64,000 nucleotides of DNA from a virus, in IMG/VR virus record IMGVR_UViG_3300030450_002944, positions 17,308 through 81,307 of that record; one strand, 5' to 3'. Shown here one piece after another: positions 4,270 to 62,060 of this stretch (position 1 is the first letter of the stretch; each line of letters opens with the position of its first letter). A program made the translations under genes and the position numbers. The notes beneath the pieces were generated by a model, which made no database searches, was not told the DNA's origin, and saw only the letters and a list, made by a program, of their open reading frames with translations.

Positions 4270-4448
4270 CCACCCCCCCTTTTTTTCCTAAAGGAGTTAT
4301 ATGATATATCAGCAGCCACCACCACAGGAGAGGAAATAGGTATATATAAGGAATGGAAAAGGAGAGGAAATGGAGAAGGAAAGGGGTGGGAAATGGAAAG
4401 GAAGGAAGGGGTCAAATGTCGCATAACTCCCCATGTGGTAGGGGGTAC

Positions 4449-4928
4449 TTAAAAGCACTCCCCTGATTGTTGCAATTCAAATATACTAGGTCCACGATCT
4501 CTATGACGTATTAAGCTCTTATAGGCTTCTTGCAATCCCCATTCATAATAGAACGATTGACCAAATGACCTTTTGCACCACACAGTTAAACCTAGCATAT
4601 CGTCAATTATAATTTCTCCCACTTCTCCGAGCCAATGTGCCAAATGATCAGAGATAAGAAAATATTGCATTACTTCTCCCTGTTTCCATTCAATAAGTGC
4701 TTCTTTAAACTCTGGCTCTTCCATGTCTGGTAGGTTTTCAGGGTCATATCCCTGTCTAAAATCTTCTATATCTTCTGATGTTATAGCGTTTTCGGTTGCT
4801 ATATATAAACTCTCGTAACTGTCGTCTTGCTCAAAGAACCTTTCGGCTACTTCGTTTACAAGATATAGTACGTTCTTATCACACCATTTCTTAAAGTCTT
4901 TATCTTCTGCTAATTTGTCGCTATTCAC
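4449..4928 (-). CDS. Hypothetical phage protein
   Basis: 159 aa, GTG start with AAGGAG RBS, own promoter. Confidence 0.8.
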   Translation of the reverse strand: MNSDKLAEDKDFKKWCDKNVLYLVNEVAERFFEQDDSYESLYIATENAITSEDIEDFRQGYDPENLPDMEEPEFKEALIEWKQGEVMQYFLISDHLAHWLGEVGEIIIDDMLGLTVWCKRSFGQSFYYEWGLQEAYKSLIRHRDRGPSIFELQQSGECF

Positions 4929-4963
4929 TTTTTACTCCTTTATTAGTTTTTACTTATATATCA

Positions 4964-4993
4964 ATAATAGCATATATAGGGGGGGTAGGTCAA
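4964..4993 (-). promoter_or_regulatory. sigma70-type promoter next to 18-bp box
   Basis: TTGACC-N18-TATTAT on the minus strand. Confidence 0.7.
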
Positions 4994-5191
4994 CCCCTGA
5001 TATATCCTATAACTCCACCTACTATTATTATATCATATAGGGAAGGGGTCTGTCAAGGGAAAAGGGAAGGAAGGGAAAAGGGAAGGAAGGGGATAGGGGG
5101 ACTGGAGTTATGCGATTATGGGTAGTGGCTCAAAGAGAGAGCCACCACACAATTACGCCAACCACTATTAAGATTTCCAATCAATCCCCTT

Positions 5192-5446
5192 TTACCACAT
5201 AGAGTCAAATGCTTTAACCATGTTAGCCTGTACTTCATACCTAGATGCGTCTACCTGAACGTCTTGACCATCAATTATTACATAATCAATATCATGAGCA
5301 TAGATACTACCAATTTCTGTAGCATAGCCATACACTTTAGCCATTCTGATATTACCTTTTTTGTTGTCCATCATCTCAAACTTCCAACCATTTTTTTGGT
5401 ATCCGACTGTCCCTTTTTTTATGTCATTAGGTTCAATAGTTTTCAT
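5192..5446 (-). CDS. Small hypothetical protein
   Basis: 84 aa, AAGGA RBS, promoter TTGACA-N18-TATACT at 5481-5510. Confidence 0.8.
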   Translation of the reverse strand: MKTIEPNDIKKGTVGYQKNGWKFEMMDNKKGNIRMAKVYGYATEIGSIYAHDIDYVIIDGQDVQVDASRYEVQANMVKAFDSMW

Positions 5447-5501
5447 AGTTCCTTTTTGCTAGTTTTTTCTTTATGTAATAAGTATATCATATTTGATCAC
5501 T

Positions 5502-5666
5502 CTATGTCAACTCAATGTTTACAATTTCTTTGTCTGTTAATTTAATATTGTGTTGCTCATAAAAGTTATCTTTTACATTTTGGATAAATTCTTTTTTGGT
5601 TTCTCCATAATTATTTATCGCAAATGATAATTCTATTTCACAGAACCATTCTTTTTCTTCACTCAT
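5502..5666 (-). CDS. Small hypothetical protein (54 aa)
   Basis: Read manually: MSEEKEWFCEIELSFAINNYG...; AAGGAG RBS; promoter TTGACA-N18-TATACT at 5686-5715. Confidence 0.65.
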   Translation of the reverse strand: MSEEKEWFCEIELSFAINNYGETKKEFIQNVKDNFYEQHNIKLTDKEIVNIELT

Positions 5667-5755
5667 TTTCGTACTCCTTTATTTAAGTATAGCATATTTG
5701 ATCATTCTATGTCAATAGGGATATATCATATAACTCCAAAAAAAATAAATTTAAC

Positions 5756-6057
5756 TAAGCGTGGCGAAGGTGTCAGATTGAATGAAACTCACTTTCAAAC
5801 TTAGACTTACGATATCATGATATGATCGTGCTACATCAGGCTACAACTTCGGCTTTCTATCCTAGGCTAGTGGCGGAAGTGATACATCTGGCTCAACGTC
5901 AGGGAACAGAGGGATCTGCAAGATACTCTATTTCTATTCGTTTATCTGAACTTGTACTAAAAGTTCGTTAACAATTAAGTACAACTGATAGTTTGACAAT
6001 AACCTTCAAAAGTTTCTGTACAGGTTGCGAACCTATGAGCCTACTTAACCACGCTTA
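5756..6057 (-). ncRNA. Candidate large (~300 nt) structured ncRNA
   Basis: TAAGCGTGG/CCACGCTTA closing stem, many internal helices, higher GC, no ORF; downstream of promoter 6185-6214. Confidence 0.6.
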
Positions 6058-6070
6058 TTAAATTGTTAAA

Positions 6071-6177
6071 CAAGATTGATGATCGGTTGTTATAGACCGA
6101 ATTTAATCTGTCCACATTCCCTACTTCGTTGTATTGGTAAAATGTTATTCACATTCATCGTTACTTCCTCAACCTTG
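6071..6177 (-). ncRNA. Candidate ~107 nt structured RNA (or 22-aa peptide leader)
   Basis: CAAGGTTGA/TCAATCTTG closing stem (G-U pair valid only on the minus strand), two internal hairpins, begins at the predicted TSS. Confidence 0.45.
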
Positions 6178-6309
6178 TAATATAAGTATAGCATATTAAA
6201 GAGTGGTAATGCAATACCTTGATATATCATATAACTCCTCTTAAAAAAAGAGGGCAGGTGGGGGAAGGGGAAAAATGAAAAAACCCCAAACCCCTCTTGT
6301 ACCTACCTA

Positions 6310-6546
6310 TTACATTTCCTCAGCCATTGCCCAAAGGATAGGCTCAACTTCACTAGATATCTGTAAATGGAAGTCGCAACACTTTAACCTGTCGTTCATT
6401 TGATCTTTGGAAAAGATTAGAATATCCTTTATGGAAAAGGCTTTCCTATCTTTACAATCAAACCATTGTCGCCAATACCCTTTATCAGAGTCCACTTCAT
6501 AGTGAACATTCTCGTTTCTATATTTAAAAGTTCCTTTAGCTTTCAT
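6310..6546 (-). CDS. Small hypothetical protein
   Basis: GAGGT RBS, coupled to the upstream ORF. Confidence 0.7.
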   Translation of the reverse strand: MKAKGTFKYRNENVHYEVDSDKGYWRQWFDCKDRKAFSIKDILIFSKDQMNDRLKCCDFHLQISSEVEPILWAMAEEM

Positions 6547-6547
6547 C

Positions 6548-6739
6548 TTAACCTCTATTCATTTCTATATATTTTTCATTTAGTTCTGTTCTTATTACAT
6601 CGCAATCATCAGAACACACAACATTATTTCCATAACATTCTGTATGATCTTTTTGATAGTTTTTCCACTCTAAAATTTCATCATCTGTTAGAGTGAAAGA
6701 CTTAGGGTGTTTATGTGAGTTGCTAATCCAAGATATCAT
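6548..6739 (-). CDS. Small hypothetical protein
   Basis: AAGGA RBS; promoter TTGACA-N18-TATAAT near 6769-6798. Confidence 0.7.
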   Translation of the reverse strand: MISWISNSHKHPKSFTLTDDEILEWKNYQKDHTECYGNNVVCSDDCDVIRTELNEKYIEMNRG

Positions 6740-6785
6740 TTTATTCCTTTACTTGTTTCTATACTTATATTATAGCATATTTAAT

Positions 6786-6884
6786 GTAGGCTTGTCAAGT
6801 GTGTCTTGTTTAGATTTACATATAACGACTTGCAAGAGCTTTCAGGATCAGGGAATACTTACTCAACCCCACTTGACTACCTAC
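6786..6884 (-). ncRNA. Candidate ~100 nt structured RNA
   Basis: GTAGG..GTCAAGTG / CACTTGAC..CCTAC closing stem right after promoter 6892-6921; no ORF. Confidence 0.4.
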
Positions 6885-6944
6885 TAAGTATATAATAACA
6901 TATATGAAGTAGTGAAGTCAATACTGGATATATCATATAACTCC

Positions 6945-7002
6945 CATAAAGAATGTGTCCCATAAAGAATGTGTCCAGTAAAGAATGTGTCCAGTAAAGA
7001 AT
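6945..7002. repeat. 16-bp tandem repeat (~3.6 copies)
   Basis: (CA/AG)TAAAGAATGTGTCC repeated, abutting the 18-bp box at 6927-6944. Confidence 0.9.
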
Positions 7003-7072
7003 ACGAGGATTTTTTTCACAAAAAACTTTTCTCCCAAGTCAATGGGCTAGGTGGGCTAGATTTTTAAATCCT

Positions 7073-7210
7073 CTATTGGATGTCGTCTGAAATCTTCAGA
7101 TCAGGAGAGAGGTCATTCCAGTTAAGGATTTCCTCTACTTCTTTATCGGCAGACTCATCATTCCTACCGACACTCATTAGGATTTCATCTATTAGTTCTC
7201 TTAGAGTCAT
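7073..7210 (-). CDS. Small acidic peptide (45 aa)
   Basis: Read manually: MTLRELIDEILMSVGRND...; GGAGGT RBS; own promoter. Confidence 0.65.
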   Translation of the reverse strand: MTLRELIDEILMSVGRNDESADKEVEEILNWNDLSPDLKISDDIQ

Positions 7211-7431
7211 AATAGACCTCCACTTTTTTTGGTTTTGTTTTATCGACCTAATATAAGTATAACATATATTCTTTTTACGTCAAACCCCTACCCCCCATTG
7301 ATATATCATATAACTCCAAAAAATGAGAGTATAGAAAGAAAAAATGTAAAACTTCCTATACTCTCTTAATTGTTAATGTTCTTCACATTTAGGGCAAATA
7401 ATAGTTGAGCCATTTCTTATACAATCGCAAC

Positions 7432-7659
7432 TCATAAGGGTAATTTTCCAGACTCTTTTTTCTGTTCCCACGTTGCCGACTCTATAGCACCTCTGAAAAT
7501 CTGTTCATTAAAGTTTGGGTTATCATCTGCAAATATTTTGCATAATTCTTGGTATAGTATATCAGGGTCTATATATTGAAAACTGCTTGTCGCAGAGTCA
7601 ATAAATTTTATACTGTTTTTCCACACGTCCACAAATTTTATGTAATCTTTTTTAGTCAT
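7432..7659 (-). CDS. Small phage protein (MTKKDY...DNPNFN..F type)
   Basis: AAGGA RBS; own promoter; motif common in small phage early proteins. Confidence 0.8.
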   Translation of the reverse strand: MTKKDYIKFVDVWKNSIKFIDSATSSFQYIDPDILYQELCKIFADDNPNFNEQIFRGAIESATWEQKKESGKLPL

Positions 7660-7762
7660 CTTTTTTTCCTTTTTATTAGTTGATACATTAAGTATAGCAC
7701 ATTAAAGATTATTAATGCAATACCCCCACCCCTATTGATATATCCTATAACTCCAGTTGAAA

Positions 7763-8068
7763 TTAAATGAAATCAACTGAATTAGGTTCTTGTCTAGTTA
7801 TTAGAACTGAATCTTGTTCAAATTTAGTTTTATATTTTAGGGCAACTTTATTAACCACGTTGATATAATTAATATTATTTTTTTCATGAAGGATAGATAC
7901 AACTTTAGTTTTCTCTTTAGTTCCCTTCCAATAACCTGTAATTTCTGATACTGAAAAACCTTCAACTTCATTAGCAAGTTCAGTATCTAGAAAACTATTA
8001 AATTGTTTATCTGATACAACTGACTTATTTTTTATATCAGTTCCAAAATATATTAATGTGTTTATCAT
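7763..8068 (-). CDS. DUF3574-like small protein
   Basis: LIYFG...F.SFLD....GFSV....GYW....E.T......Y..KFEQDSVL pattern. Confidence 0.65.
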   Translation of the reverse strand: MINTLIYFGTDIKNKSVVSDKQFNSFLDTELANEVEGFSVSEITGYWKGTKEKTKVVSILHEKNNINYINVVNKVALKYKTKFEQDSVLITRQEPNSVDFI

Positions 8069-8072
8069 TTTA

Positions 8073-8252
8073 TTACCATACCTTCCGTTCTAGAGTTTGC
8101 TTTATTCTTAGTTCATTAATCTTAGCTTTAGTTAATGGTTTAGGTTTAGATCCATTGCCCTTAACAACTGTTATACATTTTCCATTTTTTCCAATGGGTA
8201 CAATCAGTCTTGACTTACTTCTTTTAACTTGTCTTTTACTTGGTATATTCAT
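8073..8252 (-). CDS. Small basic protein (59 aa)
   Basis: Read manually: MNIPSKRQVKRSKSRLIVPIGKNG...; AAGGA RBS. Confidence 0.6.
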   Translation of the reverse strand: MNIPSKRQVKRSKSRLIVPIGKNGKCITVVKGNGSKPKPLTKAKINELRIKQTLERKVW

Positions 8253-8376
8253 TTTTTTAATCCTTCTTTTTAGTTACTATAATTATTCTATCATTTTATT
8301 TACTACCATGTCAACCCCTGATATATCATATAACTCCCCCGAAAAATAATAAAAATCGGGGGGAGAGAGTAATTAA

Positions 8377-8604
8377 TTAATCGTCAATGTTTGGTTGTTC
8401 CATTCTTGCGATATGGTTATCCACAATGTACCCTGAATATATTTCATCAGAGAGAATGAAAATCTGTTTCCAGAATAACCCTGATTGAGTATCAAGAAAA
8501 TCTTCATCTTCTTTAACACCTGATTTAATAATCGCTAATGCTAAATCGTTGTATCCCTGTGCTATTGCTTGTTCTTTATCTAATCCATTATAATCTGTAG
8601 CCAT
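8377..8604 (-). CDS. Small hypothetical protein
   Basis: AAGGAG RBS; followed by hairpin 8334-8365. Confidence 0.75.
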   Translation of the reverse strand: MATDYNGLDKEQAIAQGYNDLALAIIKSGVKEDEDFLDTQSGLFWKQIFILSDEIYSGYIVDNHIARMEQPNIDD

Positions 8605-8712
8605 TTTTTAAATCTCCTTTGATTTAATTTATTTATTTATTTAACCTATAATTATTGTCTCATGGATTTGATTTTTTTACAACCCCCATGATATATCCTA
8701 TAACTCCTCTGC

Positions 8713-8937
8713 TTATTCGTACACCTCCCCTAATAAGTCGCCGTCTGCTTCTTGAGGTGTATCAAAATCTACAACCTCATAATTTTCTATGGCGTGTTTC
8801 TGTACTGTAGGTATGCCCTGATCCTCGCAAGCCTGCAACCTTTTTAAAGGCGTTTTGTAGCCGTCATCATCTGCCTGATACGCAGACTCCCAGTCCCAGT
8901 TCTCAGCCCAAAATTTTAAGTTCTCTAAGTTATCCAT
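8713..8937 (-). CDS. Small acidic hypothetical protein
   Basis: AAGGAG RBS; own TTGACA promoter. Confidence 0.75.
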   Translation of the reverse strand: MDNLENLKFWAENWDWESAYQADDDGYKTPLKRLQACEDQGIPTVQKHAIENYEVVDFDTPQEADGDLLGEVYE

Positions 8938-9073
8938 TTTTTCTCCTTAACTAAATTTAACTATACCTATAGTATATCACATATTCAAAACTTGTCAACC
9001 CTGTGCCACTCGGCTCAACTAGGGATATATCACATAACTCCACTTCAGCCGAAAAAAAACTGAAGTGAGTATA

Positions 9074-9217
9074 TTAATCGTTCTGAAAATATTCAATCAT
9101 AAGTTTAAAGTGTTCCCTATCTAGTTTTTCAACTGGGACATGTTGCAATAATTCCATTAACATATTAACAATAGTATTTAATTTTATATCTATTCGTTCT
9201 AAGTCTAATTTATCCAT
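9074..9217 (-). CDS. Small hypothetical protein (47 aa)
   Basis: Read manually: MDKLDLERIDIKLNTIVNML...; AAGGAG RBS; followed by hairpin 9041-9067. Confidence 0.6.
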   Translation of the reverse strand: MDKLDLERIDIKLNTIVNMLMELLQHVPVEKLDREHFKLMIEYFQND

Positions 9218-9409
9218 TTTATTATTTCTCCTTTAGTTGTTTATTGTTTTAATTTAATTTTTTATTTATTTTTTATTTCTCCCTTCTACTTAATATTACG
9301 TGTAATAAAGGGTAAAAAACGTCAGAGAAACATCAGAAAAACGTCAGAGTTTTTTATATTCAAAAAACAAACTGAAGTAAGTATATTAAGATTATGTATA
9401 ATAAAATTT

Positions 9410-9640
9410 TCATTTTAAATCTCCTATAATAATTTGAAAATCCATATTCCCAGAGTTCTCATCACCTCCCACAATAGTGATGAAATCCTTTTGAGAAGGA
9501 TCATCAATATCAAAATAGTGTGACTCCACCCAGTAGCAGTAACCACACATAACCACTTCATCACCATCTACATCAACCACCAATCCCCAAGATGCTATTT
9601 GGTTTATTATTAAGTTGCAGAAGTTACATTCTTTATTCAT
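9410..9640 (-). CDS. Small Zn-binding hypothetical protein
   Basis: CNFC...CGYC; AAGGAG RBS. Confidence 0.7.
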   Translation of the reverse strand: MNKECNFCNLIINQIASWGLVVDVDGDEVVMCGYCYWVESHYFDIDDPSQKDFITIVGGDENSGNMDFQIIIGDLK

Positions 9641-9817
9641 TTTTTTAAATCTCCTTTATTTGTTTTTTGGGCATAGTATCCCGTATTTATAATATTAGCA
9701 CATTTGGGGTCAAAAGGAGTTATATGATATATCCCGTACCACTCCCATTTATTTACCTCAGCCGTAAACGAACTGGAGTAAATAAATTAAAATGATATAT
9801 AATAAAATTTTCATCAG

Positions 9818-10018
9818 TTACGCCTTTCTATCTACAATTGTTGCTGAATATTTTCTACTCATTAAAAATAATTTAGAACCATTAGGGCTAGTTATTTCCA
9901 AATCTCCAAAATCATCATAATCATCTTTATCAACTGACTTTTCTATCGCTTCTTTTTTTGATTTAGCCACAACCGTTTTGTAAGCAATCTGGGTTTCTTT
10001 GATTAAGTATTCTTTCAT
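9818..10018 (-). CDS. Small hypothetical protein (V.AKS..EA.E. motif)
   Basis: AAGGAG RBS; motif common in small phage proteins. Confidence 0.7.
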   Translation of the reverse strand: MKEYLIKETQIAYKTVVAKSKKEAIEKSVDKDDYDDFGDLEITSPNGSKLFLMSRKYSATIVDRKA

Positions 10019-10193
10019 TTTTTTCTCCTTTTGTTATTTAACCTTATATAGATATTTTACAATACCACCCCCCTTATTGCAACCCCTTTGGAGTTATATG
10101 ATATATCCTTTGTATTTTTATTATTTACAATGTGGCTTACATGTAATAGAATAATATTAGATTAAATAAATAAGTAAACCGAAAGGCGAAAAA

Positions 10194-11799: not shown

Positions 11800-12222
11800 A
11801 TGTATACATATAAATGCACAGTTACAAAAGTAATAGATGGAGACACTATTGATGTTGATATCCAATTAGGGTTTAATGTTATTCTATATAAACAAAGAAT
11901 AAGATTACATGGGATAGACACGCCAGAATCTAGAACTAGGAATTTGGAAGAAAAGGCTAGAGGATTACTTTCAAAAGATTTTATGAAGAAATTGGCTCCT
12001 GTCGGATCTTCCATTACTTTAAAGTCCTTAGAAAAAGGAAAATTTGGTAGGATATTAGGTATTATTTGGCAAGAAGGGGATGAATGGGAAACTGATTCTC
12101 CAATAAACGACTTAATGATTGAAAACTATCATGCAGTTCCATATACTGGACAAAACAAGAACGATGTAGAATCTTTACATGAAGCTAATAAACTCAAGCT
12201 AATTGAAAAGGGAATCTTGTAA
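11800..12222 (+). CDS. Thermonuclease (SNase-like) nuclease
   Basis: VIDGDT, RIRLHGIDTPE, GKFGRILG motifs. Confidence 0.9.
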   Translation: MYTYKCTVTKVIDGDTIDVDIQLGFNVILYKQRIRLHGIDTPESRTRNLEEKARGLLSKDFMKKLAPVGSSITLKSLEKGKFGRILGIIWQEGDEWETDSPINDLMIENYHAVPYTGQNKNDVESLHEANKLKLIEKGIL

Positions 12223-12223
12223 A

Positions 12224-15200
12224 ATGCCAGACATTGATGCAATGACAGAAAAGTTAATGAAGGATCCTGATTTTCAGGCTAAGATAGGTAAAACTAAGCG
12301 TGAAACTGCTCAAGAAGAGGCTACTCAAAGAGCACATCAACATAGAAAAAATTCTATGGCATTAGCATTAGGTAATGAGAGTAAGACTGCTGTAGAACAT
12401 TTAAGTGAATATGCTAAATTAGAGGCTCAACGAAAAGAGATTGATGAAATGGTTTTCGGTGTTCCTACTGAAGAAATTCGAGATAAGATGGCACGTCCTC
12501 TCAATGTGGTTGATATAGACATAAATGATCTTACTTTGAGTCCACCACCAGCTAATACAAGTACTCAGGTTAAAGAAGAATTAGAGACCATCATTGATAA
12601 ACATCTTCAAACAAAAGAAGATACAGATAATTTTGAATTTGAGATTGCAAAGCCTGCTGAAATACAAGATTTAGATATTTTAAAATCTTTCATTAAATTA
12701 GCTGAAGAATTGGGACTTAGTGATGATATTACTAAAAAGAAATTAGAAGTAATAAAAGATGATTCTGCTACTATTGTTTTAAATCTAAAATATTATTTCA
12801 ATAGACCTAGACCTGAACAATTAATGGACTATCATGGAGTAGATTTTAAACCTGCAGATTTCAAAACTTCTGATACTCCTGCTTATCCATCTGGACATGC
12901 CTTTCAAGGTACATTAATTGCATTGATTTTATCTGAAGTGTTTCCACAACATGCAGATTCGTTTATGAAACTTGGTGAATCTATTGGTGAGAATAGAGTA
13001 ATTTTCGGTGTTCATTATCCTTCAGACCACGCCGCTGGTATAGAATTAGCAAAACAGGTTTTTCCTTATGTAAATTTTGAGAAATTAGATTTTAAACCCA
13101 TTCCACAGGAATCCCAACCTTTAGAAAAAGACTTACCTAATATAGAAAAAGCTACAGGTATAGAAATTGCAGCTACAGGAGCAGCTCTAGCATCTGGAGG
13201 AATAGCATTATGGGATTTATATCAAGCTTTTAAGAAAAATAAAAAATTAAAGCAGGAAGATAAAGTAGAATTAAACGAAGCTTTAGAGGAAAATGAAGAT
13301 AGTTTAAAAGAAACAAAAATTGATATAAAAGAAGATGAATTACCAGATTTAGAAAATGCTGATAATGTAGATGAATTAATAAGTGGTGTAAAAAATCCAG
13401 ACAAAGCTGAACCAATTATTGAGAAAGTTAGGAAAAAAAGATGGGATTCTGGACTAAGTAAAGAAGACGCAGCTAAAATTAGAGCTGAACGTGAGGCTAA
13501 AAGAAAGGATGCTGCTACTCCTTTACCTAAAATTGGAGAAGGTGTAGAAGAACCAAAAGGTGAAGAACCTAAAAAAGTAGACGCTGAAAAGAAAGAGTCT
13601 GAACAAGTAGAGGAGAAGAAAGAGCCTCGAAAAATTCCTTTAGATATCCATAGTAAAAAAACTCTTATTGATAACATTGGTAAATTAGTAAATCATATTC
13701 CTACTCATAGAGGAAAAAATGATAGTGATACTTCTAGAGGAAAATTTAATGCTTCTCAAATAAATCCAGATACATCATCTTTAGATCCTGTAGTACATCA
13801 ATCATTTGAAAATTGGAGTACCCGAAACCCAGAAGATTTACATGATCATTTAAATTCCCTATCTGAAGAGAAATTAAGAGCTATAGCTTCAGCGTTAGGA
13901 GAACAAGCTAACCAAGTCGCTCCGGGTAGTGAATTGAATCCAGTAGGTTCATCAACAAGATTAGGTATTTTAGGTAGAATGCTTAGAGACGATAAATCAG
14001 GTAAAAAAGAAATAGAAGGTGTATCTAATAAGGATTACCAAACAGCTTTAAGAGATTCTTTAAGTAGAGCTGTAAATTCTAATCACGATATAACAGTTCC
14101 GGGTGGTGAAGAAGAAATTGTAGAAGCTGCTAATGAGAATTTAGAAGAAGAAACAAGACCTTCACCTGAAGAAGAGGCTAGAAGAAAATATGAAGCGGAA
14201 CAAAAAGCAAAACGAGATGCTGAAGAGGCAGATAAAAAAGAAGAGGAATCTAAAGATAAAAAAACAGGGGGTCCTTCTCCTTTTGCAGTAGAAGAAGAGA
14301 GTAAACCAATTAATTTAGATGAAGCTGATTTAGGTAAGATTAAACTTGGTGACTCTAAAGAACTTACTAATTTAAATGGTTATCTATCAGATGCTAAATA
14401 TGGTGGAATAAAAGGTCAAGAATTTACTAATGAAGATGGTACAGTAAAATCAAGATACATGCATGGTTTACAAGAATATATTAAAAAGAATCCTACTTCA
14501 GCTAAAATTGGTACTGATGGTTCAGTAGAGTTTGATCCTGAATACATAGGTAATTTAACAAAACACTTCTCAGAAAACCATGATGATGCTGCTATGAGTA
14601 GATTATGGGAGAAAAACTATAGACATAAAGGAGCAAGTGATACATCTTCTATTGGATATGGTGATTATTCTCCATCAAAAGAAGCAAGAGGGGCTATACT
14701 TTCTAGAAAAGAAAAAATGGATAAAGTTATGGAACAACAATTTGGAGAAGATTGGGAAGATTCTAATGACTTTGATGTGAGAGCTGAAAGAGAACATCTT
14801 CAATCAATGGATTCAAAAACATTTAATAAACATTTTGATACTGCATATTTAAAACCATTGAGATCTCAGAGACAAAAAGATAGGACTGCAGGTATAAAAG
14901 CAGAGACCCCCAAAGATCCTAATAAAGAACGATGGAATTTAAAGGATTCTAGTCCTGATGAAGCCTATGAAAAAGCTAAAGAAATGATAGCTCATTCACT
15001 TGAACATAGTGAAGAACATGGTGGAAAAGGTTTAGACGAAAAGACTGTTTCTCATATGAATAAACAACTATCAGCTGCTCGTAAAGCAATGGGAGCTGAT
15101 AATATTAAAAAACTTAACCAAGAAATCAAAGATGGTAGTATCCAACCTACTAAAGCTGAAGAGCCTAAAGAGGATAAAGATTACGAAGGATCAGATATTC

Positions 15201-15898
15201 CAGATGAAGCAAGAGGATATGGAGATGCTCCTGAAGGTGTTAAGACATATAAAGGACCATCAGGTGGAGTATTTTATGATAAGAGGGAAGCAAAAAAGAA
15301 AGATAGTGAAGGTGGGGGTGACGGAACATCTGATTCTGGTGATACGGGAGACTCAGGTGAAAAAATGCCTCCACCATCTATACCAGAAGATTCTAAAATA
15401 TCTTCAGATGAACCTGTTGGAGATAAAGCATCTGCATGGGGAGATAAAATCGGATCTGCTGTAAGTGCTTTAGGTAGACTTACTGGAAAAGCAGGTAAAG
15501 AAGATAGAAAAAAATTAATAGCTGATGCGGCTAAGACATTTAAAGAAGCTGGTAAAGCAGTTGGAAAAGAAGGTAAAAGAGCTTTTAATGAAATTGGATC
15601 AGCAATGGCTGAAGAAATAGCTAGATCTAGAGGTTATGGTGAGGCTCAAGCCAAAAATGCTAAACTTAAATATCAATTACAAGCTGCTGCCAGAGGTATT
15701 CCAATAGCAGGTAAAATAATTCCTAAAACTGAAGGATATAAAGGAGAATCAAAGGCTGGAGTCAGAGGGGCAAAACAAGAAACAAGAGCTAAAGAACAAG
15801 CAGCTTATGAGAAATTAACCTATGGAGACAAAGTAGATTTTGAAGTTTCTAAGAGTAATTTAAAAAAACTACAGGATTTTACTAAAAATAGAGTATAA
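12224..15898 (+). CDS. Large low-complexity protein with PAP2/haloperoxidase-like phosphatase domain; probably head-associated
   Basis: KYYFNRPRP, AYPSGHA, RVIFGVHYPSD motifs; ATG at 12224 follows the upstream stop (track start 12203). Confidence 0.75.
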   Translation: MPDIDAMTEKLMKDPDFQAKIGKTKRETAQEEATQRAHQHRKNSMALALGNESKTAVEHLSEYAKLEAQRKEIDEMVFGVPTEEIRDKMARPLNVVDIDINDLTLSPPPANTSTQVKEELETIIDKHLQTKEDTDNFEFEIAKPAEIQDLDILKSFIKLAEELGLSDDITKKKLEVIKDDSATIVLNLKYYFNRPRPEQLMDYHGVDFKPADFKTSDTPAYPSGHAFQGTLIALILSEVFPQHADSFMKLGESIGENRVIFGVHYPSDHAAGIELAKQVFPYVNFEKLDFKPIPQESQPLEKDLPNIEKATGIEIAATGAALASGGIALWDLYQAFKKNKKLKQEDKVELNEALEENEDSLKETKIDIKEDELPDLENADNVDELISGVKNPDKAEPIIEKVRKKRWDSGLSKEDAAKIRAEREAKRKDAATPLPKIGEGVEEPKGEEPKKVDAEKKESEQVEEKKEPRKIPLDIHSKKTLIDNIGKLVNHIPTHRGKNDSDTSRGKFNASQINPDTSSLDPVVHQSFENWSTRNPEDLHDHLNSLSEEKLRAIASALGEQANQVAPGSELNPVGSSTRLGILGRMLRDDKSGKKEIEGVSNKDYQTALRDSLSRAVNSNHDITVPGGEEEIVEAANENLEEETRPSPEEEARRKYEAEQKAKRDAEEADKKEEESKDKKTGGPSPFAVEEESKPINLDEADLGKIKLGDSKELTNLNGYLSDAKYGGIKGQEFTNEDGTVKSRYMHGLQEYIKKNPTSAKIGTDGSVEFDPEYIGNLTKHFSENHDDAAMSRLWEKNYRHKGASDTSSIGYGDYSPSKEARGAILSRKEKMDKVMEQQFGEDWEDSNDFDVRAEREHLQSMDSKTFNKHFDTAYLKPLRSQRQKDRTAGIKAETPKDPNKERWNLKDSSPDEAYEKAKEMIAHSLEHSEEHGGKGLDEKTVSHMNKQLSAARKAMGADNIKKLNQEIKDGSIQPTKAEEPKEDKDYEGSDIPDEARGYGDAPEGVKTYKGPSGGVFYDKREAKKKDSEGGGDGTSDSGDTGDSGEKMPPPSIPEDSKISSDEPVGDKASAWGDKIGSAVSALGRLTGKAGKEDRKKLIADAAKTFKEAGKAVGKEGKRAFNEIGSAMAEEIARSRGYGEAQAKNAKLKYQLQAAARGIPIAGKIIPKTEGYKGESKAGVRGAKQETRAKEQAAYEKLTYGDKVDFEVSKSNLKKLQDFTKNRV

Positions 15899-56594: not shown

Positions 56595-59500
56595 ATGACT
56601 TGGTTTGAAAAACAAGGAAGAGAAGGTTTAATTCCTAAAAAAGTTTCTGAAACTGTCCATCCAAAAGAAGGGCTTCCATTTGAAAGACTTAGTACAGTAT
56701 ATGTCAAGCCTGAAGTCCCAGACTTTGTAAATGATTGGTTAGAAGATTTTGATTCAAAAACACCAGTCTATTTAGTTGGAGGTTCAGTTAGAGATTCATT
56801 ATTAGGAGAAACCCCAAAAGATATAGATGTAATTACTTTCCAACCAAAAGAAGATATAGAAGCGAGTCTAAAAAATTCTAAAACGAAATTCTATCAAGGT
56901 GGAAAAAATTTACCTAACTTACTTACTGCCAATCTAGGCAAGGATCAATTAATTGATATTGTAAGTATGGATACAGATATAGGATCTGAGCTAGTAAGAA
57001 GAGATTTCACAATAAATGCTATGGCTCAAAGACCAGACGGTGAGATTATAGATCCATTTGGGGGACGAAAAGATTTAAAAGAAGGTGTTTTAAGATCTCC
57101 AAAAGATGATAGTGATAAGGTATTTGAAGATGATCCTTTAAGAATGCTTAGAGCAGCTAGATTTATTGGTGATTTAAACTTAAAACCTCATAGTTCTGTA
57201 ACTCAAGCTATCCAAAAACATAAAGATTTATTATCAAATCTTCCAAAAGAACGTATAGGTATGGAATTTGGAAGAATATTATATTCTAAAGATCCAATAT
57301 CTGGATTAAAATTCTTAAAAGATAATGACATGTTAAAATATATTGACCCAGCTTTACAAAGAATGGTTGGATTTGTTCAAAATATAGAAGGGCATGACTA
57401 TGATGTTTGGAATCACACACTTAAATCCTTAGAACATCATATAACTAAAGATAAAAAAAGTCCAGACTTAGCTACTAGACTAGGAATTTTATATCACAAT
57501 GTAGGTAAGCCTGCAACAGCTAATTCTAATAATAGCAATTTTGATAATTATGAATCTATTGGAGCACAAATTGTAGAAGAAAGCCTTAATTCTTTACGAC
57601 TACCTTCTGATATGATAGATACTGTTAGAAAGTTAGTACAACACCATACTTCTGCAAAGACTGCAAAAACTGAAGGTGATCATAGAAGAGTACAACTGAA
57701 GTTAAGACATGACTTAAACAAACTTAATTATGTAGCAACTGCTCATGAAGTAGGAAAAGAAGGTAATGTAAATGCCGACACTTCTCATATAGTTGAATTT
57801 CAAGACACTATTGATAAATTAGATCCTGTATCAGCTGAAGGTGAGGGTTCTTCAAAACTTTCCCCATTATCTGGAAAAGAGATTATGGACGCATTAAATA
57901 TTGTTCCTAATAAAAAAGGTGGGGGTGAAAGAATTGGCAAGATAAAAGACTTCTTAGACAATCTAGTTGTTGAAGGTGAACTAAAACAATCTGATAAAGA
58001 AGGAGCTTTAGAAAGAGCTAAACAGTATCATTCTACATTCACTATGAAGTCTACTGATATTTTAAAAGGTTGGCTAAATATATTGAAAGACGAGGATATT
58101 ACAGGTGAGGCATTTGCAGGTCATACAGAAGATGCAGATGGTAATTTAGTATTTGATGCAAGTAAAAAGAAGCAAAAACAAGAAGTAGCTGATTGGCATG
58201 CTAATTTTGAAAAGCAGAAAAGACTTGATGCGGGATTAATTCCAAAAAAACTTACTGATAAAAATGGTATTGAGGTTACACGTTGGATAAACCCAAAAAA
58301 AGATGATGTGGAAATGGATAAAAATTCCCCAAATTTTGCAATGAGAGATTTAAAACATACTTATGGCACTAGTAATGCGAAAGAATTATGGGAAAAATAT
58401 AAAAAACCTGTTCTAGATAAAAAAACCGGAGAGCATTTAAAAGATGAAAAAACTGGTGAATTAAAGTATACACATAGTATTACACTTCCTCATCCAGAGG
58501 ATTCAAAAAGTTCACATTATCATGGAGAAGGTAGAAAAGGTAAAAAACTTGGCAGTTCTGAGAAATGGATGAACGCTGATAATATACATTTCGATGATGA
58601 TCCTTTTTCATTATATCCAATAAAAGCAACAAATGAAAAGGGGAAGATAATAAAAGATAAAGGTCCAACATATGATCATCCAGAACATACAGCTATGAGA
58701 TGGAAAACAAAAGCAGCTGGAGTCACAGCCATATATATGAGAAAAGATCCGTTAAATGATGCTTTAGAAGCAGAATATAAAAAAGATAATCCAGCCTTAG
58801 AGGCAATAATGACAGGTTTAATGTTTAAAAGTGGGATTAGAGTAGGTAATCCTGCCGATGCTAAAGAATTATTAGCAGCTCTAGATAAACCTGCTTCATT
58901 TGGAGCCTCTTCTTTACAAAAACAACATCTTAGGATTGATGGGGATAAGATTTACCATAAATTTCCGGGTAAGAAAAAGACGATGCAAGAAGCTCCCGAA
59001 CCTATAGTTGATGCAAATTTAGCAAAAGCATTGACTAAGATAATGAAAAACAAAAAAGATGATGATTTTATATTTCAAAAAGATAATGGGGTGATTGTTA
59101 ATGAAGGAAGCACTCAAAAATGGCATAATAAAGCAATGAAAATTCATCCGGATAATCCAGTTACTAATCATAATTTTAGAACTTTCGTTGGAACAAGTAT
59201 GGCAGTAAATAATGTAGCTGACTTTCTTAATAATCCAGAGGTTATAAAAGAGCTTGATAAAACAAATAAACTTCCAATTAAAACTAAAGGCGAGTTTAAG
59301 GATTTTACACATAGAATGGCAATTGATTCAGCTAAACAATTAAGTCATGTTAGTGGAGATGGTAACAAAATCAATCCACAGATAACTTTAGATCATTATA
59401 TAAAGCCAGATACTTTTACATATAAACAATCAGATGGTAAGAATGTATTAATAGAATCCGCAATTGATGATGATAGCACGAAAATATCTAAAGAATATCA

Positions 59501-59984
59501 AGACTTTATGGAAAAAGCTACAGGTAAGAGAAGACTAACTAAAGAAGATATGATTTTAAAAGATCCTGAAAATATGACAAAATCTTTAGATGGTAAAGAA
59601 TTCGACCCTACTAGAAAAAAGGAAAAAGATATAGATACATATTTTGAAAACAGGAAAGAAAAAGAAGAAGATAGGAACTATGGGCTAGATAAAATCCCAG
59701 CTCATATGAGACCTAGACCTAAATATTTCGCAAAAACATGGATTGAAGATTTAGCAGAGAAGGGCTTCCAAGCTCCCATAGTTAAATCTATTAGTCCAGA
59801 TGGATCCAAAATGTGGTTCATTGAAGGAGGTACAGACTTTGTAGCATCATTAGGAGCAAGTGGTGTTGGACATGTTGAGAAAGCAACTTTCCCACCATTA
59901 CCATCCAATGCAACAAATAAAATAAGTTATGCACCTTCAGCTTCCAATAAAAGACGGGAGGAAGATACCGATGAAGAAGAATAA
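56595..59984 (+). CDS. Polyprotein: class II tRNA nucleotidyltransferase-like + degenerate HD + topoisomerase IB
   Basis: VGGSVRD, DID, RRDFTINA, DDPLRMLRAARF; then IRVGN, FPGKK, NFRT, LSH, HYI. Confidence 0.85.
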   Translation: MTWFEKQGREGLIPKKVSETVHPKEGLPFERLSTVYVKPEVPDFVNDWLEDFDSKTPVYLVGGSVRDSLLGETPKDIDVITFQPKEDIEASLKNSKTKFYQGGKNLPNLLTANLGKDQLIDIVSMDTDIGSELVRRDFTINAMAQRPDGEIIDPFGGRKDLKEGVLRSPKDDSDKVFEDDPLRMLRAARFIGDLNLKPHSSVTQAIQKHKDLLSNLPKERIGMEFGRILYSKDPISGLKFLKDNDMLKYIDPALQRMVGFVQNIEGHDYDVWNHTLKSLEHHITKDKKSPDLATRLGILYHNVGKPATANSNNSNFDNYESIGAQIVEESLNSLRLPSDMIDTVRKLVQHHTSAKTAKTEGDHRRVQLKLRHDLNKLNYVATAHEVGKEGNVNADTSHIVEFQDTIDKLDPVSAEGEGSSKLSPLSGKEIMDALNIVPNKKGGGERIGKIKDFLDNLVVEGELKQSDKEGALERAKQYHSTFTMKSTDILKGWLNILKDEDITGEAFAGHTEDADGNLVFDASKKKQKQEVADWHANFEKQKRLDAGLIPKKLTDKNGIEVTRWINPKKDDVEMDKNSPNFAMRDLKHTYGTSNAKELWEKYKKPVLDKKTGEHLKDEKTGELKYTHSITLPHPEDSKSSHYHGEGRKGKKLGSSEKWMNADNIHFDDDPFSLYPIKATNEKGKIIKDKGPTYDHPEHTAMRWKTKAAGVTAIYMRKDPLNDALEAEYKKDNPALEAIMTGLMFKSGIRVGNPADAKELLAALDKPASFGASSLQKQHLRIDGDKIYHKFPGKKKTMQEAPEPIVDANLAKALTKIMKNKKDDDFIFQKDNGVIVNEGSTQKWHNKAMKIHPDNPVTNHNFRTFVGTSMAVNNVADFLNNPEVIKELDKTNKLPIKTKGEFKDFTHRMAIDSAKQLSHVSGDGNKINPQITLDHYIKPDTFTYKQSDGKNVLIESAIDDDSTKISKEYQDFMEKATGKRRLTKEDMILKDPENMTKSLDGKEFDPTRKKEKDIDTYFENRKEKEEDRNYGLDKIPAHMRPRPKYFAKTWIEDLAEKGFQAPIVKSISPDGSKMWFIEGGTDFVASLGASGVGHVEKATFPPLPSNATNKISYAPSASNKRREEDTDEEE

Positions 59985-60911: not shown

Positions 60912-62060
60912 ATGTCAAAGTTTTTCCAATTTATTTTATTATTAGCAATGTTTCCACTCTTATTGCTAGGGTGTGAAAGTATAGAAGAACCAAAGGACAC
61001 GAAGATCGGAATGATATTAGTCGGTCCTAAAAACGATAAGGGTTGGTCTCAAGCTCATTACGAAGGTGGTGAGTATGTAGTTTCTCAACTAGGTGGAGAA
61101 ATGATAACAGTTGATCTTGTAAACCCCGCAGATTCCCCAGACTTAACTATCCCTTCAATTGCCGAAGATATGATCTCTCAAGGAGCATCTATAATTTTTG
61201 CTACTTCAGATGATATGAAAGATGGTATATTAGAAGCTGCAGAGAAATATCCAGACACCGATTTCGTCTGGTCTACAGGAGATAGTGCATTAGTAGTCGG
61301 ACAAGGCTATAAACCTGAATTAAAAAACCTATCTAATGTAATGGGTAAGATGGAATATGGTCAAATGATTGCAGGTTGTGCAGCAGCTATTAAATCTAAA
61401 GAAGGAAAGATTGGTTTTCTTGGTCCATTAGTTAATGATGAGACAAGAAGATTAGCAAATGCTACCTACCTTGGAGCTTTACATTGTGCTGGAGATAAAG
61501 AAATTGATTTCGATGTAACTTGGATTGGATTCTGGTTTCATATTCCGGGCATGACTTTAGATCCAACACAAGTAGTTAATGAATTTTATGACTCTGGTAG
61601 GGATGTTGTAATCTCTCATATAGATACTACTGAAGCCGTAGTTGTTGCAGGACAAAGAGCCGCTGGAGGAGAGGATATATGGGTAGTACCTTACGATTAT
61701 AAAGGAGCTTGTGAACAATCCCCAGAAATTTGTCTAGGAGTAAATTACTTTAATTGGGGCTATGACTATTTAGAACTGGTTGAACTAAGTAACTCAGGTA
61801 AATTTGAAAACAATTGGATTTGGACTGATCCTAACTGGGCTAATTTAGAAGAATCTATTGTAGGTTTTAAATATGGAGATGGTTTAGATCCAAAGGAAAA
61901 AGCTAAAGTAAGTAGCTTTATAACTGAATTAAAAGACGGGCTCAATCTATTTAAAGGACCATTATATTTTGAAGATGACTCAGTATACCTAGAAGAAGGT
62001 AAGGAAGCATCTGATATAGATATATGGTACACCCCAAAACTACTAAAAGGCATCAAATAG
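60912..62060 (+). CDS. BMP-family ABC transporter substrate-binding lipoprotein
   Basis: Signal peptide with LLGC lipobox; GPKNDKGWSQAHYEG, GKIGFLG, WIGFWF. Confidence 0.85.
   Translation: MSKFFQFILLLAMFPLLLLGCESIEEPKDTKIGMILVGPKNDKGWSQAHYEGGEYVVSQLGGEMITVDLVNPADSPDLTIPSIAEDMISQGASIIFATSDDMKDGILEAAEKYPDTDFVWSTGDSALVVGQGYKPELKNLSNVMGKMEYGQMIAGCAAAIKSKEGKIGFLGPLVNDETRRLANATYLGALHCAGDKEIDFDVTWIGFWFHIPGMTLDPTQVVNEFYDSGRDVVISHIDTTEAVVVAGQRAAGGEDIWVVPYDYKGACEQSPEICLGVNYFNWGYDYLELVELSNSGKFENNWIWTDPNWANLEESIVGFKYGDGLDPKEKAKVSSFITELKDGLNLFKGPLYFEDDSVYLEEGKEASDIDIWYTPKLLKGIK

What the first reader, a model, noticed from the sequence alone, without database searches (positions are those of the whole stretch)
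5756..6057. Unrecognised ~300-nt highly structured RNA occupying a whole cassette
Seen on the minus strand: no ORF of 60 aa or more, raised GC, and a closing helix TAAGCGTGG/CCACGCTTA. Internal helices include AGGTT/AACCT, TTGTACT/AGTACAA, ACTTC/GAAGT, ACGAT/ATCGT and TTGAA/TTCAA. GGCTCA/TGAGCC and GAAGG..TGTCA/TGACA.CCTTC cross each other, suggesting a pseudoknot. It sits between two boxes behind a strong promoter. I cannot see tmRNA, RNase P or tRNA signatures. Inference: a possible new large phage ncRNA or ribozyme.
Basis: partly seen in the sequence, partly recalled or inferred. Interest (0 to 1): 0.72.

Follow-up and report, generated by a model that had tools for sequence, protein, structure and literature searches.

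The report
New folded RNA gene, marine phage
The gene-free cassette is a real gene for a folded, non-coding RNA of about 430 bases, carried by a small group of uncultured marine phages and absent from RNA catalogues; its job is unknown.

Summary

I found eight homologous copies (about four lineages) in IMG/VR and marine metagenome contigs, roughly 75-77% identical from box to box. They share no reading frame and differ by indels of 1, 2, 5, 6, 7 and 24 nt.

Substitutions preserve pairing. 97.5% of cells are paired and 16 of 78 pairs change on both sides (shuffles give 5.9±1.7; slid controls give 0-3). G·U pairs identify the minus strand as the folded one.

The fold energy alone is unremarkable (z -1.8 and -0.35). 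Rfam 15 and ARAGORN find nothing.

An invariant palindromic CCUAGG sits in the apical loop of an arm whose stem covaries. Twin 19-nt repeats flank that arm.

Expression is untested because the read-laying run failed.

Best reading: an autonomous, early, trans-acting RNA that acts as a decoy or scaffold and may pair with itself. The mechanism is inferred.

A first-stage note on another genome (e1-6085613) describes a similar cassette.

The parts
6221..6238 (-). Upstream 18-bp box GGAGTTATATGATATATC, marking the start of the cassette
   Evidence: Exact match. It is one of the repeated boxes of the leftward array and is conserved at the same place in all homologues.
6185..6214 (-). Predicted sigma-70 promoter: -35 TTGCAT (6214-6209), 18-nt spacer, extended -10 TGCTATACT (6193-6185)
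   Evidence: Read from the sequence. The relatives have TTGACA plus TGGTATACT at the same position. It was not listed by the consensus scan because the window's -35 matches only 3 of 6. Function is inferred.
6071..6181 (-). 5' domain: a long hairpin closed by UACAAGGUUGAGGA/UCAUCAAUCUUG. The helix starts 0-3 nt after the predicted start site. It contains an inner hairpin UGUGGAC/GUCUAUA.
   Evidence: Alignment A3 columns 3-16/100-113 are paired in all 9 sequences, with two one-sided G-C/G·U changes. Columns 66-72/84-91 show G·U to A-U in L033. The relatives carry a 3-bp GNRA hairpin (GAAA, or GAGA in L010) where the window has a 24-nt insertion.
6090..6158 (-). 22-codon mini-ORF behind GAGGAAG. 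It is specific to this lineage and is not part of the conserved element.
   Evidence: Its ATG lies in a 24-nt insertion present only in the window and L037. The other seven homologues lack it, and the frame is not shared.
5753..6060 (-). 3' domain, closed by a 12-bp helix (6060-6049 with 5764-5753). A 7-bp helix (6008-6002 with 5771-5765) stacks directly inside it on the 3' side.
   Evidence: Closing helix: one pair changed on both sides and three on one side. Inner helix: two pairs changed on both sides and no mismatch in 9 sequences.
6020..6036 (-). Hairpin with a conserved 7-nt loop NUCGCAA, lying between the two closing helices
   Evidence: Three of 5 pairs change on both sides (UUAGG/CCUAA, AUAGG/CCUGU, UAAAG/CUUUG) and 100% of cells are paired.
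5923..5982 (-). Arm GUACUUAAUU/AAUAGAGUAU enclosing hairpin GAACUU/AAGUUC (5966-5948). An alternative pairing is UUGUACU/AGUACAA.
   Evidence: Each of the two helices has one pair changed on both sides. The alternative has a C·A mismatch in 7 of 9 sequences. Unresolved; the two may be alternative conformers.
5910..5931 (-). 22-nt invariant block AUAGAGUAUCUUGCAGAUCCCU. It is partly single-stranded in the model.
   Evidence: Identical in all 9 homologues. Its core served as the search key that retrieved the metagenome homologues.
5879..5897 (-). Twin repeat R1: GUUGAGCCAGAUGUAUCAC
   Evidence: A direct repeat of R2, 16-18 of 19 identical depending on lineage. L010 carries the same A-to-U change in both copies.
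5848..5882 (-). Long irregular arm with the invariant palindrome CCUAGG (5866-5861) in its apical loop
   Evidence: The inner stem reads ACCAU/AUGGU, CUGUU/AACAG and AUCAU/AUGAU in the relatives. The outer stem has A-U to C-G (L008 vs L009) and CC/GG to UG/CA (L046). The window has a shorter stem, ACUUC-C-GC/GC-C-GAAGU. The loop hexamer is identical in all sequences.
5828..5847 (-). Twin repeat R2: GUUGUAGCCUGAUGUAGCAC
   Evidence: See R1.
5809..5829 (-). Hairpin ACGAU/AUCGU with a variable loop of 10-11 nt
   Evidence: The stem is conserved (97.8% of cells paired) and the loop sequence and length vary. No covariation.
5779..5799 (-). Hairpin UUGAA-AG-UGA / UCA-UUCAA
   Evidence: Present in all lineages. 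The loop is GUU, GUUC or UUU, so the length change is confined to the loop.
5738..5752 (-). 3' tail: about 7 nt followed by U8, then the next box at 5720-5737
   Evidence: A U-run of 6-9 is present in all homologues. It is not a canonical terminator, because the U-run does not abut a short hairpin. The 3' end is inferred.

Best explanation
This is an autonomous gene for a structured, non-coding, trans-acting RNA of a family not yet catalogued.

**Inferred transcription.** Host RNA polymerase probably transcribes it early in infection from a sigma-70 promoter with an extended -10. The transcript would run from about 6179 to the U-run at 5745-5738.

**Shown by comparison of homologues.** The RNA folds into two domains:
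- a 5' hairpin domain;
- a multi-arm 3' domain closed by 19 stacked base pairs.

The fold displays sequence-invariant elements on covarying stems:
- a palindromic CCUAGG apical loop;
- a 7-nt NUCGCAA loop;
- a 22-nt invariant block;
- twin 19-nt repeats flanking the palindrome arm.

**Inferred mechanism.** These invariant surfaces would bind a partner rather than encode anything. The twin repeats could offer two equivalent sites for a protein. The palindromic loop could pair with a second copy of the RNA. On this reading the RNA is a decoy or scaffold used in host takeover or counter-defence, as are the small early genes around it.

**How the confidence splits.** I put about 0.85 on 'a real structured non-coding RNA gene' and about 0.3 on the decoy/scaffold mechanism. 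The single figure given is a blend of the two.
For: **Homologues.** Eight further copies (seven distinct) in about four lineages come from IMG/VR and marine metagenome contigs, with box-to-box identity of about 75-77%.

**Not coding.** No ORF is shared, indels are 1, 2, 5, 6, 7 and 24 nt, and the window's mini-ORF start codon is absent in the relatives.

**Structure.**
- 78 pairs with 97.5% of cells paired. 16 pairs change on both sides, against 5.9±1.7 in shuffles (0 of 500 reach it) and 0-3 in slid controls.
- An unbiased helix scan against 100 column permutations found 3 perfect helices with two or more double changes, against a mean of 0.08 (1 of 100 reach it). The longest helix is 11 bp against 6.9.

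**Strand.** There are 95 G·U cells. The opposite strand would pair only 84.6% of cells.

**Promoter and start.** These are conserved, and the first helix begins 0-3 nt after the predicted start.

**Autonomy.**
- The same cassette sits between unrelated neighbours in the window lineage and in the main lineage.
- It is present in all four related IMG/VR records.

**Context.**
- The leftward array consists of small genes behind sigma-70 promoters.
- It includes a DUF3574 / SAM-lyase-like ORF at 7763-8068.

**Palindromic loop.** CCUAGG is invariant although the stem beneath it changes completely. Palindromic or symmetric kissing loops hold the phage RNAs ROOL and GOLLD, and OLE, together as homo-oligomers (PMC12286853).
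Against: - No transcript evidence. The single read-laying run was lost to a filter, so the small word shares seen in six RNA runs count for nothing.
- The minimum free energy is not clearly better than that of shuffles: z -1.8 for the window and -0.35 for L008.
- Diversity is low (about four lineages). Covariation therefore rests on few independent events, and I chose the structure on these same sequences.
- The tail has no canonical terminator.
- No partner has been identified.
- Antisense matches to the phage genome are at chance level: 49 found against about 42 expected. The one 16-mer shared with another part of the genome is absent from G001.
- Decoy, scaffold and self-pairing are inferences from anatomy only.
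Confidence: 0.6

Rival explanations
1. A cis-acting element of the array: a long leader, attenuator or elaborate terminator/insulator that controls read-through into the next cassette, rather than an RNA that acts in trans.
For: It ends in a U-run directly before the next box and promoter. The 19-bp closing stack lies about 7 nt before that U-run. The SD-like GAGGAAG is buried in the first helix.
Against: The downstream and upstream neighbours differ between lineages while the RNA is retained. About 430 nt with five or more conserved arms and invariant loops is far more than a terminator needs. The next cassette has its own consensus promoter at 5715-5686.
Confidence: 0.1
2. A replication-related element. 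Either the transcript primes DNA synthesis (ColE1 RNA II-like, or like the R-loop origins of T4), or the folded single strand of DNA is the functional form.
For: It is a structured, promoter-driven, non-coding region in the early part of the genome. The phage encodes its own family A polymerase, primase and DnaB-like helicase. G·T wobbles are also tolerated in single-stranded DNA.
Against: The cumulative GC skew shows no turning point here; it simply follows gene orientation. No G-rich or C-rich R-loop tract and no iterons were seen. The conserved promoter and the helix starting at the +1 position fit an RNA product.
Confidence: 0.07
3. A ribozyme, either self-cleaving or of another kind.
For: The size, the invariant unpaired blocks and the multi-arm junction are in the range of large ribozymes. 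The main lineage contains CUGAUGA next to a stem.
Against: No Rfam ribozyme model matches at E<=10 in the window or in four relatives. The CUGAUGA segment is deleted in the window's lineage. No conserved candidate cleavage site was identified.
Confidence: 0.06
4. A decayed or very small protein-coding cassette (mini-ORFs), with the apparent structure a by-product.
For: The window has a 22-codon ORF behind a good SD. The main lineage has a 53-codon ORF in the RNA sense.
Against: Neither ORF is shared across lineages. Indels are out of frame, and substitutions preserve pairing rather than codons.
Confidence: 0.03

Closest known systems
GOLLD and ROOL large ornate RNAs of phages and prophages, and OLE RNA (Rfam; cryo-EM structures in PMC12286853)
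   Same: These are large (over 400 nt), multi-arm, phage-borne, stand-alone RNAs of unknown function with highly conserved loops. In them, symmetric or palindromic kissing loops mediate homo-oligomer formation. Here an invariant palindromic CCUAGG sits on a covarying stem.
   Different: There is no sequence or structure match to any Rfam model. This RNA is smaller than GOLLD and ROOL and is not next to tRNA genes, since this genome has none. It lies in an early-gene cassette array. Self-association is untested.
PeSL mobile regulatory cassettes of T4-type phages (PMC2839356, PMC4122927; titles and abstracts seen)
   Same: Small early units are bounded by a repeated promoter-associated motif and are shuffled between related genomes. 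The window and G001 share cassettes in different order and orientation.
   Different: That comparison describes the array, not the RNA. PeSL cassettes carry small ORFs, whereas this unit carries a structured RNA of about 430 nt. The 18-bp box here is unrelated in sequence.
Candidate structured RNAs predicted from IMG/VR (Fremin, Bhatt and Kyrpides 2023, PMC10690425)
   Same: Same data source and the same kind of object: an unnamed, covariation-supported RNA in uncultured phages.
   Different: I could not check whether this locus is among their 10,006 candidates, because no supplementary files are held. Their pipeline discarded BLAST pairs above 200 bits. The full-length pairs here score 343-388 bits.
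phi29 pRNA and 6S / CsrB-type protein-binding RNAs
   Same: These are phage or bacterial RNAs that work by binding proteins or each other through loops, which is the mode of action proposed here.
   Different: No Rfam match. GGA motifs are not enriched: 4-8 observed against about 5.4-6.5 expected. This phage has an ordinary large terminase, so a pRNA-type packaging role is not indicated.

Membership tests
Any Rfam 15 family (including GOLLD, ROOL, OLE, HEARO, RNase P, 6S, SRP, pRNA, group I/II introns, IMES, self-cleaving ribozymes) | Covariance-model match at or near the family's gathering score | tested here: not met
   No match at the gathering threshold in the 64-kb window. No match at E<=10 in 5400-6400. 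None over the RNA in four homologous loci.
tRNA / tmRNA / tRNA-like | Cloverleaf, or tRNA-like domain with a tag reading frame | tested here: not met
   ARAGORN found nothing in the window or in the whole 81.3-kb genome. The NUCGCAA loop on a 5-bp stem resembles an anticodon loop only by eye.
Hammerhead or other self-cleaving ribozymes | Conserved catalytic core (for example CUGANGA ... GAAA around three stems) present in all members | tested here: not met
   No Rfam hit. CUGAUGA occurs in the main lineage only and is deleted in the window and L037.
Type III toxin-antitoxin RNA (ToxI-like) | Tandem array of short repeats next to a toxin gene | tested here: not met
   TRF finds no tandem repeat in 5650-6300. 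There are only two 19-nt repeats, about 50 nt apart. No neighbouring ORF is conserved across lineages.
CsrB/RsmZ-type sponge | Many GGA motifs displayed in hairpin loops | tested here: not met
   GGA count is 4-8 per RNA against 5.4-6.5 in shuffles. There is no Rfam match over the RNA.
Self-assembling large RNAs (ROOL / GOLLD / OLE kind) - 'works like', not membership | Homo-oligomer formation through conserved symmetric loop-loop contacts | not testable with these tools
   Only the prerequisite is seen: an invariant palindromic hexamer in an apical loop on a covarying stem. Testing needs native gels, SEC-MALS or cryo-EM.
Structured non-coding RNA gene (generic) | Conserved pairing with compensatory changes, no conserved ORF, own promoter, detectable transcript | tested here: inconclusive
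   The first three features are met. The transcript could not be tested because the read-laying run failed.

The most novel reading that the evidence does not exclude
A new class of self-assembling phage RNA. The invariant palindromic CCUAGG loop would form a symmetric kissing contact, so the RNA works as a dimer or higher oligomer (as ROOL, GOLLD and OLE do). The twin 19-nt repeats would dock a host or phage protein. Made at the start of infection, it would serve as an RNA-based takeover or counter-defence device.
Probability: 0.2. Interest if true: 0.8.

Novelty: new variant of a known kind. Interest (0 to 1): 0.62.

Why it matters
Few large structured RNAs (over 400 nt) have been described in bacteria and phages. 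Those that have been characterised, ribozymes and the self-assembling ROOL, GOLLD and OLE RNAs among them, had unusual biochemistry. This one has several useful properties:
- it is compact;
- it has a clear promoter and clear boundaries;
- it is conserved in a globally sampled marine phage lineage (one homologue comes from a Tara contig);
- it carries testable features, namely the palindromic loop and the twin repeats.

It also shows that the promoter-bounded early cassettes of this phage group can carry RNA genes as well as small proteins. That bears on how phages assemble host-takeover and counter-defence toolkits.

Tried and rejected
- **Rfam and ARAGORN.** No hits.
- **GenBank phages.**
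  - blastn of the cassette found no match.
  - tblastn with the terminase found only 23-24% identity to Sinorhizobium phages, so there is no cultured relative.
- **Protein-anchored search.** The neighbouring 1231-aa protein found nothing in IMG/VR.
- **Extra DNA-pattern scans.** Scans of viral contigs and genome contigs gave only chance matches. nhmmer was negative on the loci.
- **RNA-seq.**
  - Six metatranscriptome runs hold 0.07-0.14 of the sampled words of window:4500-7500.
  - These small shares are therefore not evidence of expression or habitat.
- **Antisense regulator idea.** 11-mer complementarity to the phage genome is at chance level (49 against about 42). A 16-mer shared with G000:16282-16296 is not conserved in G001.
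- **CsrA sponge idea.** GGA motifs are not enriched.
- **Origin idea.** GC skew shows no signal.
- **CCTAGG at the DNA level.** Four sites in the genome against 6.7 expected, which is unremarkable.
- **L043.** A partial homologue joined to low-complexity repeats. I treated it as a chimeric assembly and left it out.
- **RNAcofold of the palindrome arm.** Uninformative, because any hairpin can form an extended duplex.
- **Linkage to the 84-aa ORF (5192-5446).** Its homologue also lies near the RNA in G001, inverted. In arrays this small, that is not significant.

Full report
**What is at the coordinates**

On the minus strand, 5756-6057 has no ORF of 60 aa or more. Its GC is 0.38-0.395, against 0.255-0.30 in the neighbouring cassettes.

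The stretch lies between two copies of the 18-bp box GGAGTTATATGATATATC, at 6221-6238 and 5720-5737. Downstream of the upper box sit TTGCAT, an 18-nt spacer and the extended -10 TGCTATACT (6214-6185). This places the predicted start at about 6181-6178. A run of eight U ends the unit at 5745-5738.

Rfam 15 gives nothing at the gathering threshold over the whole window, and nothing at E<=10 over 5400-6400. ARAGORN finds no tRNA or tmRNA in the window or in the 81.3-kb genome.

The window is bases 17308-81307 of an IMG/VR virus record estimated to be 99% complete. The phage has a DnaB-like helicase, a family A DNA polymerase, a primase, RecA, ribonucleotide reductase, a large terminase and a portal. 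It has no cultured relative: the terminase is 23-24% identical to those of Sinorhizobium phages.

**Homologues**

GenBank phages hold no similar DNA, and a protein-anchored search failed.

Searching IMG/VR for the box itself found three related records: G001 (82.4 kb, complete), G002 and G003. All three contain the whole cassette, at 75-77% identity from box to box (alignment A1).

One metagenome scan with an invariant 18-mer added L036, L033, L042, L046 (a Tara contig) and L037, which is nearly identical to the window. It also returned L041, an identical copy of G002, and a chimeric partial copy, L043.

Further pattern scans gave only chance matches. The family as seen is nine sequences in about four lineages: window/L037, the main type, L010 and L046. 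All are from marine samples.

**It is not coding, and it is longer than reported**

The window has a 22-codon ORF behind GAGGAAG (6158-6090). Its ATG lies in a 24-nt insertion found only in the window and L037.

No ORF is shared across lineages on either strand. Lineages differ by indels of 1, 2, 5, 6, 7 and 24 nt.

Sequence upstream of 6057 is as conserved as the rest, and it is conserved right from the predicted start. The unit is therefore 420-445 nt long.

**Structure**

The fold energy is not convincing on its own:
- z -1.7 for 5756-6057;
- z -1.8 for the full window transcript;
- z -0.35 for the L008 homologue.

The comparative signal is much stronger. I placed a hand-built set of 11 helices on the MAFFT alignment A3 and counted pairs.

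| Measure | Observed | Control |
|---|---|---|
| Cells paired | 97.5% (78 pairs) | 36-40% in slid controls |
| Pairs changed on both sides | 16 | 5.9±1.7 in 500 shuffles (none reaches 16); 0-3 in slid controls |

Because I chose these helices on the same sequences, I also ran an unbiased scan for mismatch-free helices and compared it with 100 column permutations.

| Measure | Observed | Permutations |
|---|---|---|
| Perfect helices with two or more double changes | 3 | mean 0.08 (1 of 100 reaches 3) |
| Longest helix | 11 bp | mean 6.9 (0 of 100) |

The best-supported elements are these:
- **Closing helix**, 12 bp, 6060-6049 with 5764-5753. A-U changes to G-C, with several G·U/G-C switches.
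- **Inner helix**, 7 bp, stacked directly inside the closing helix on the 3' side (6008-6002 with 5771-5765). It reads GAAGGU/ACCUUC, AAGGGU/ACCCUU and AAAGGU/ACCUUU.
- **NUCGCAA hairpin**, 6036-6020. Three of five pairs change on both sides.
- **CCUAGG arm**. The inner stem is ACCAU/AUGGU, CUGUU/AACAG or AUCAU/AUGAU. The outer stem shows A-U to C-G between the close relatives L008 and L009.

The 5' domain (6181-6071) is a long hairpin. Its 13-pair closing helix is intact in all nine sequences and starts 0-3 nt after the predicted start. The relatives carry a GNRA-capped mini-hairpin (GAAA; GAGA in L010) where the window has its insertion.

The model contains 95 G·U cells. Read on the opposite strand, only 84.6% of cells would pair. 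The minus-strand molecule is therefore the folded one.

**What did not hold up**

- TTGTACT/AGTACAA has a C·A mismatch in 7 of 9 sequences. It competes with a helix pair that has compensatory support. The two may be alternative conformers.
- GGCTC/GAGCC is invariant, shows no covariation, and is broken by the one change seen (in L010). That same change instead extends the NUCGCAA hairpin. The pseudoknot is therefore unproven.
- TGTCA/TGACA exists only in the window's lineage.
- Nothing points to a ribozyme. No model matches, and the only hammerhead-like string is deleted in the window lineage.

**Notable anatomy**

- CCUAGG (5866-5861) is identical in all homologues and always sits in the apical loop, although the stem under it differs completely between lineages.
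- Two 19-nt direct repeats flank that arm: GUUGAGCCAGAUGUAUCAC at 5897-5879 and its twin at 5847-5828. In L010 the same A-to-U change occurs in both copies. This fits a common partner or gene conversion.
- A 22-nt block (5931-5910) is invariant.

**Context**

The RNA sits in a leftward array of about a dozen box-plus-promoter units carrying small ORFs. One of these ORFs is DUF3574 / SAM-lyase-like (7763-8068).

Between the window and G001 the cassettes are shared but reordered, and in one case inverted. The RNA cassette has unrelated neighbours in the two main lineages. It is present in all four related IMG/VR records. It therefore behaves as an autonomous, retained unit.

The array resembles the PeSL-bounded hyperplastic regions of T4-type phages (PMC2839356, PMC4122927).

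**Mechanism**

- **Shown:** conservation, pairing with compensatory changes, strand, absence of coding, and autonomy.
- **Inferred:** early transcription by host polymerase, and the 3' end at the U-run.
- **Proposed:** a trans-acting RNA whose invariant surfaces bind a partner. The twin repeats would be two equivalent protein sites. The palindromic loop would be a symmetric RNA-RNA contact, as in ROOL, GOLLD and OLE (PMC12286853).

Ideas I tested and dropped were an antisense regulator, a CsrA sponge and a replication origin.

**Limits**

- Only about four lineages are available.
- The host is unknown.
- The locus might be among the unnamed candidates of Fremin et al. 2023 (PMC10690425). I could not check this.

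**Earlier scan notes**

- Two first-stage notes on this genome describe the same stretch or the array around it.
- One note on another genome (e1-6085613) describes a similar cassette, shares short words with this RNA and pointed me to the twin repeats.
- Follow-up reports on unrelated phages describe other new self-pairing RNAs. I did not use them as evidence.

Noticed in passing
window 56595-59984 (+): A 1129-aa ORF directly after the portal gene fuses two domains. One is a poly(A) polymerase / CCA-adding nucleotidyltransferase head (aa 58-254; PF01743 3e-20, PHROG 2244 1.6e-53). The other is a eukaryotic-type topoisomerase IB catalytic core (PF01028, aa 735-877, 1e-7). The genome has no tRNA genes at all.
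   Followed up: partly
window 4293-10107, and L106 6800-10300: Cassettes bounded by the 18-bp box are shared between the window's genome and G001, but in different order, and one is in inverted orientation (window 5289-5494 against L106 8441-8232). The box-plus-promoter units behave like shuffling modules, comparable to PeSLs of T4-type phages.
   Followed up: partly
window 7763-8068 (-): A 101-aa early ORF matches DUF3574 (3.6e-15) and, more weakly, the S-adenosylmethionine lyase family (2.7e-5). It is a candidate counter-restriction gene in the same array.
   Followed up: no
L046 2479-2599 (+): In a relative's array, about 940 nt downstream of its copy of this RNA, there is a weak sub-threshold match to PrrB/RsmZ (21 bits, E 0.14). 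It may be another small RNA cassette, or it may be chance.
   Followed up: no
window 12203-15898 (+) and 60912-62060 (+): A 1231-aa protein carries a PAP2 phosphatase domain (aa 191-280). A separate 382-aa protein is a Bmp/PnrA-like substrate-binding lipoprotein. Both are unusual cargo for a phage.
   Followed up: no
window 6786-6884 (-): A second promoter-proximal ORF-free leader starts with GGGGTTGAGTAAGTA, which resembles the AAGGTTGAGGAAGTA at the 5' end of the RNA studied here. I did not establish any further similarity.
   Followed up: partly
window 6942-7002 (+): About three and a half tandem copies of a 16-nt unit (TCCCATAAAGAATGTG-like) lie just upstream of a box and promoter.
   Followed up: no
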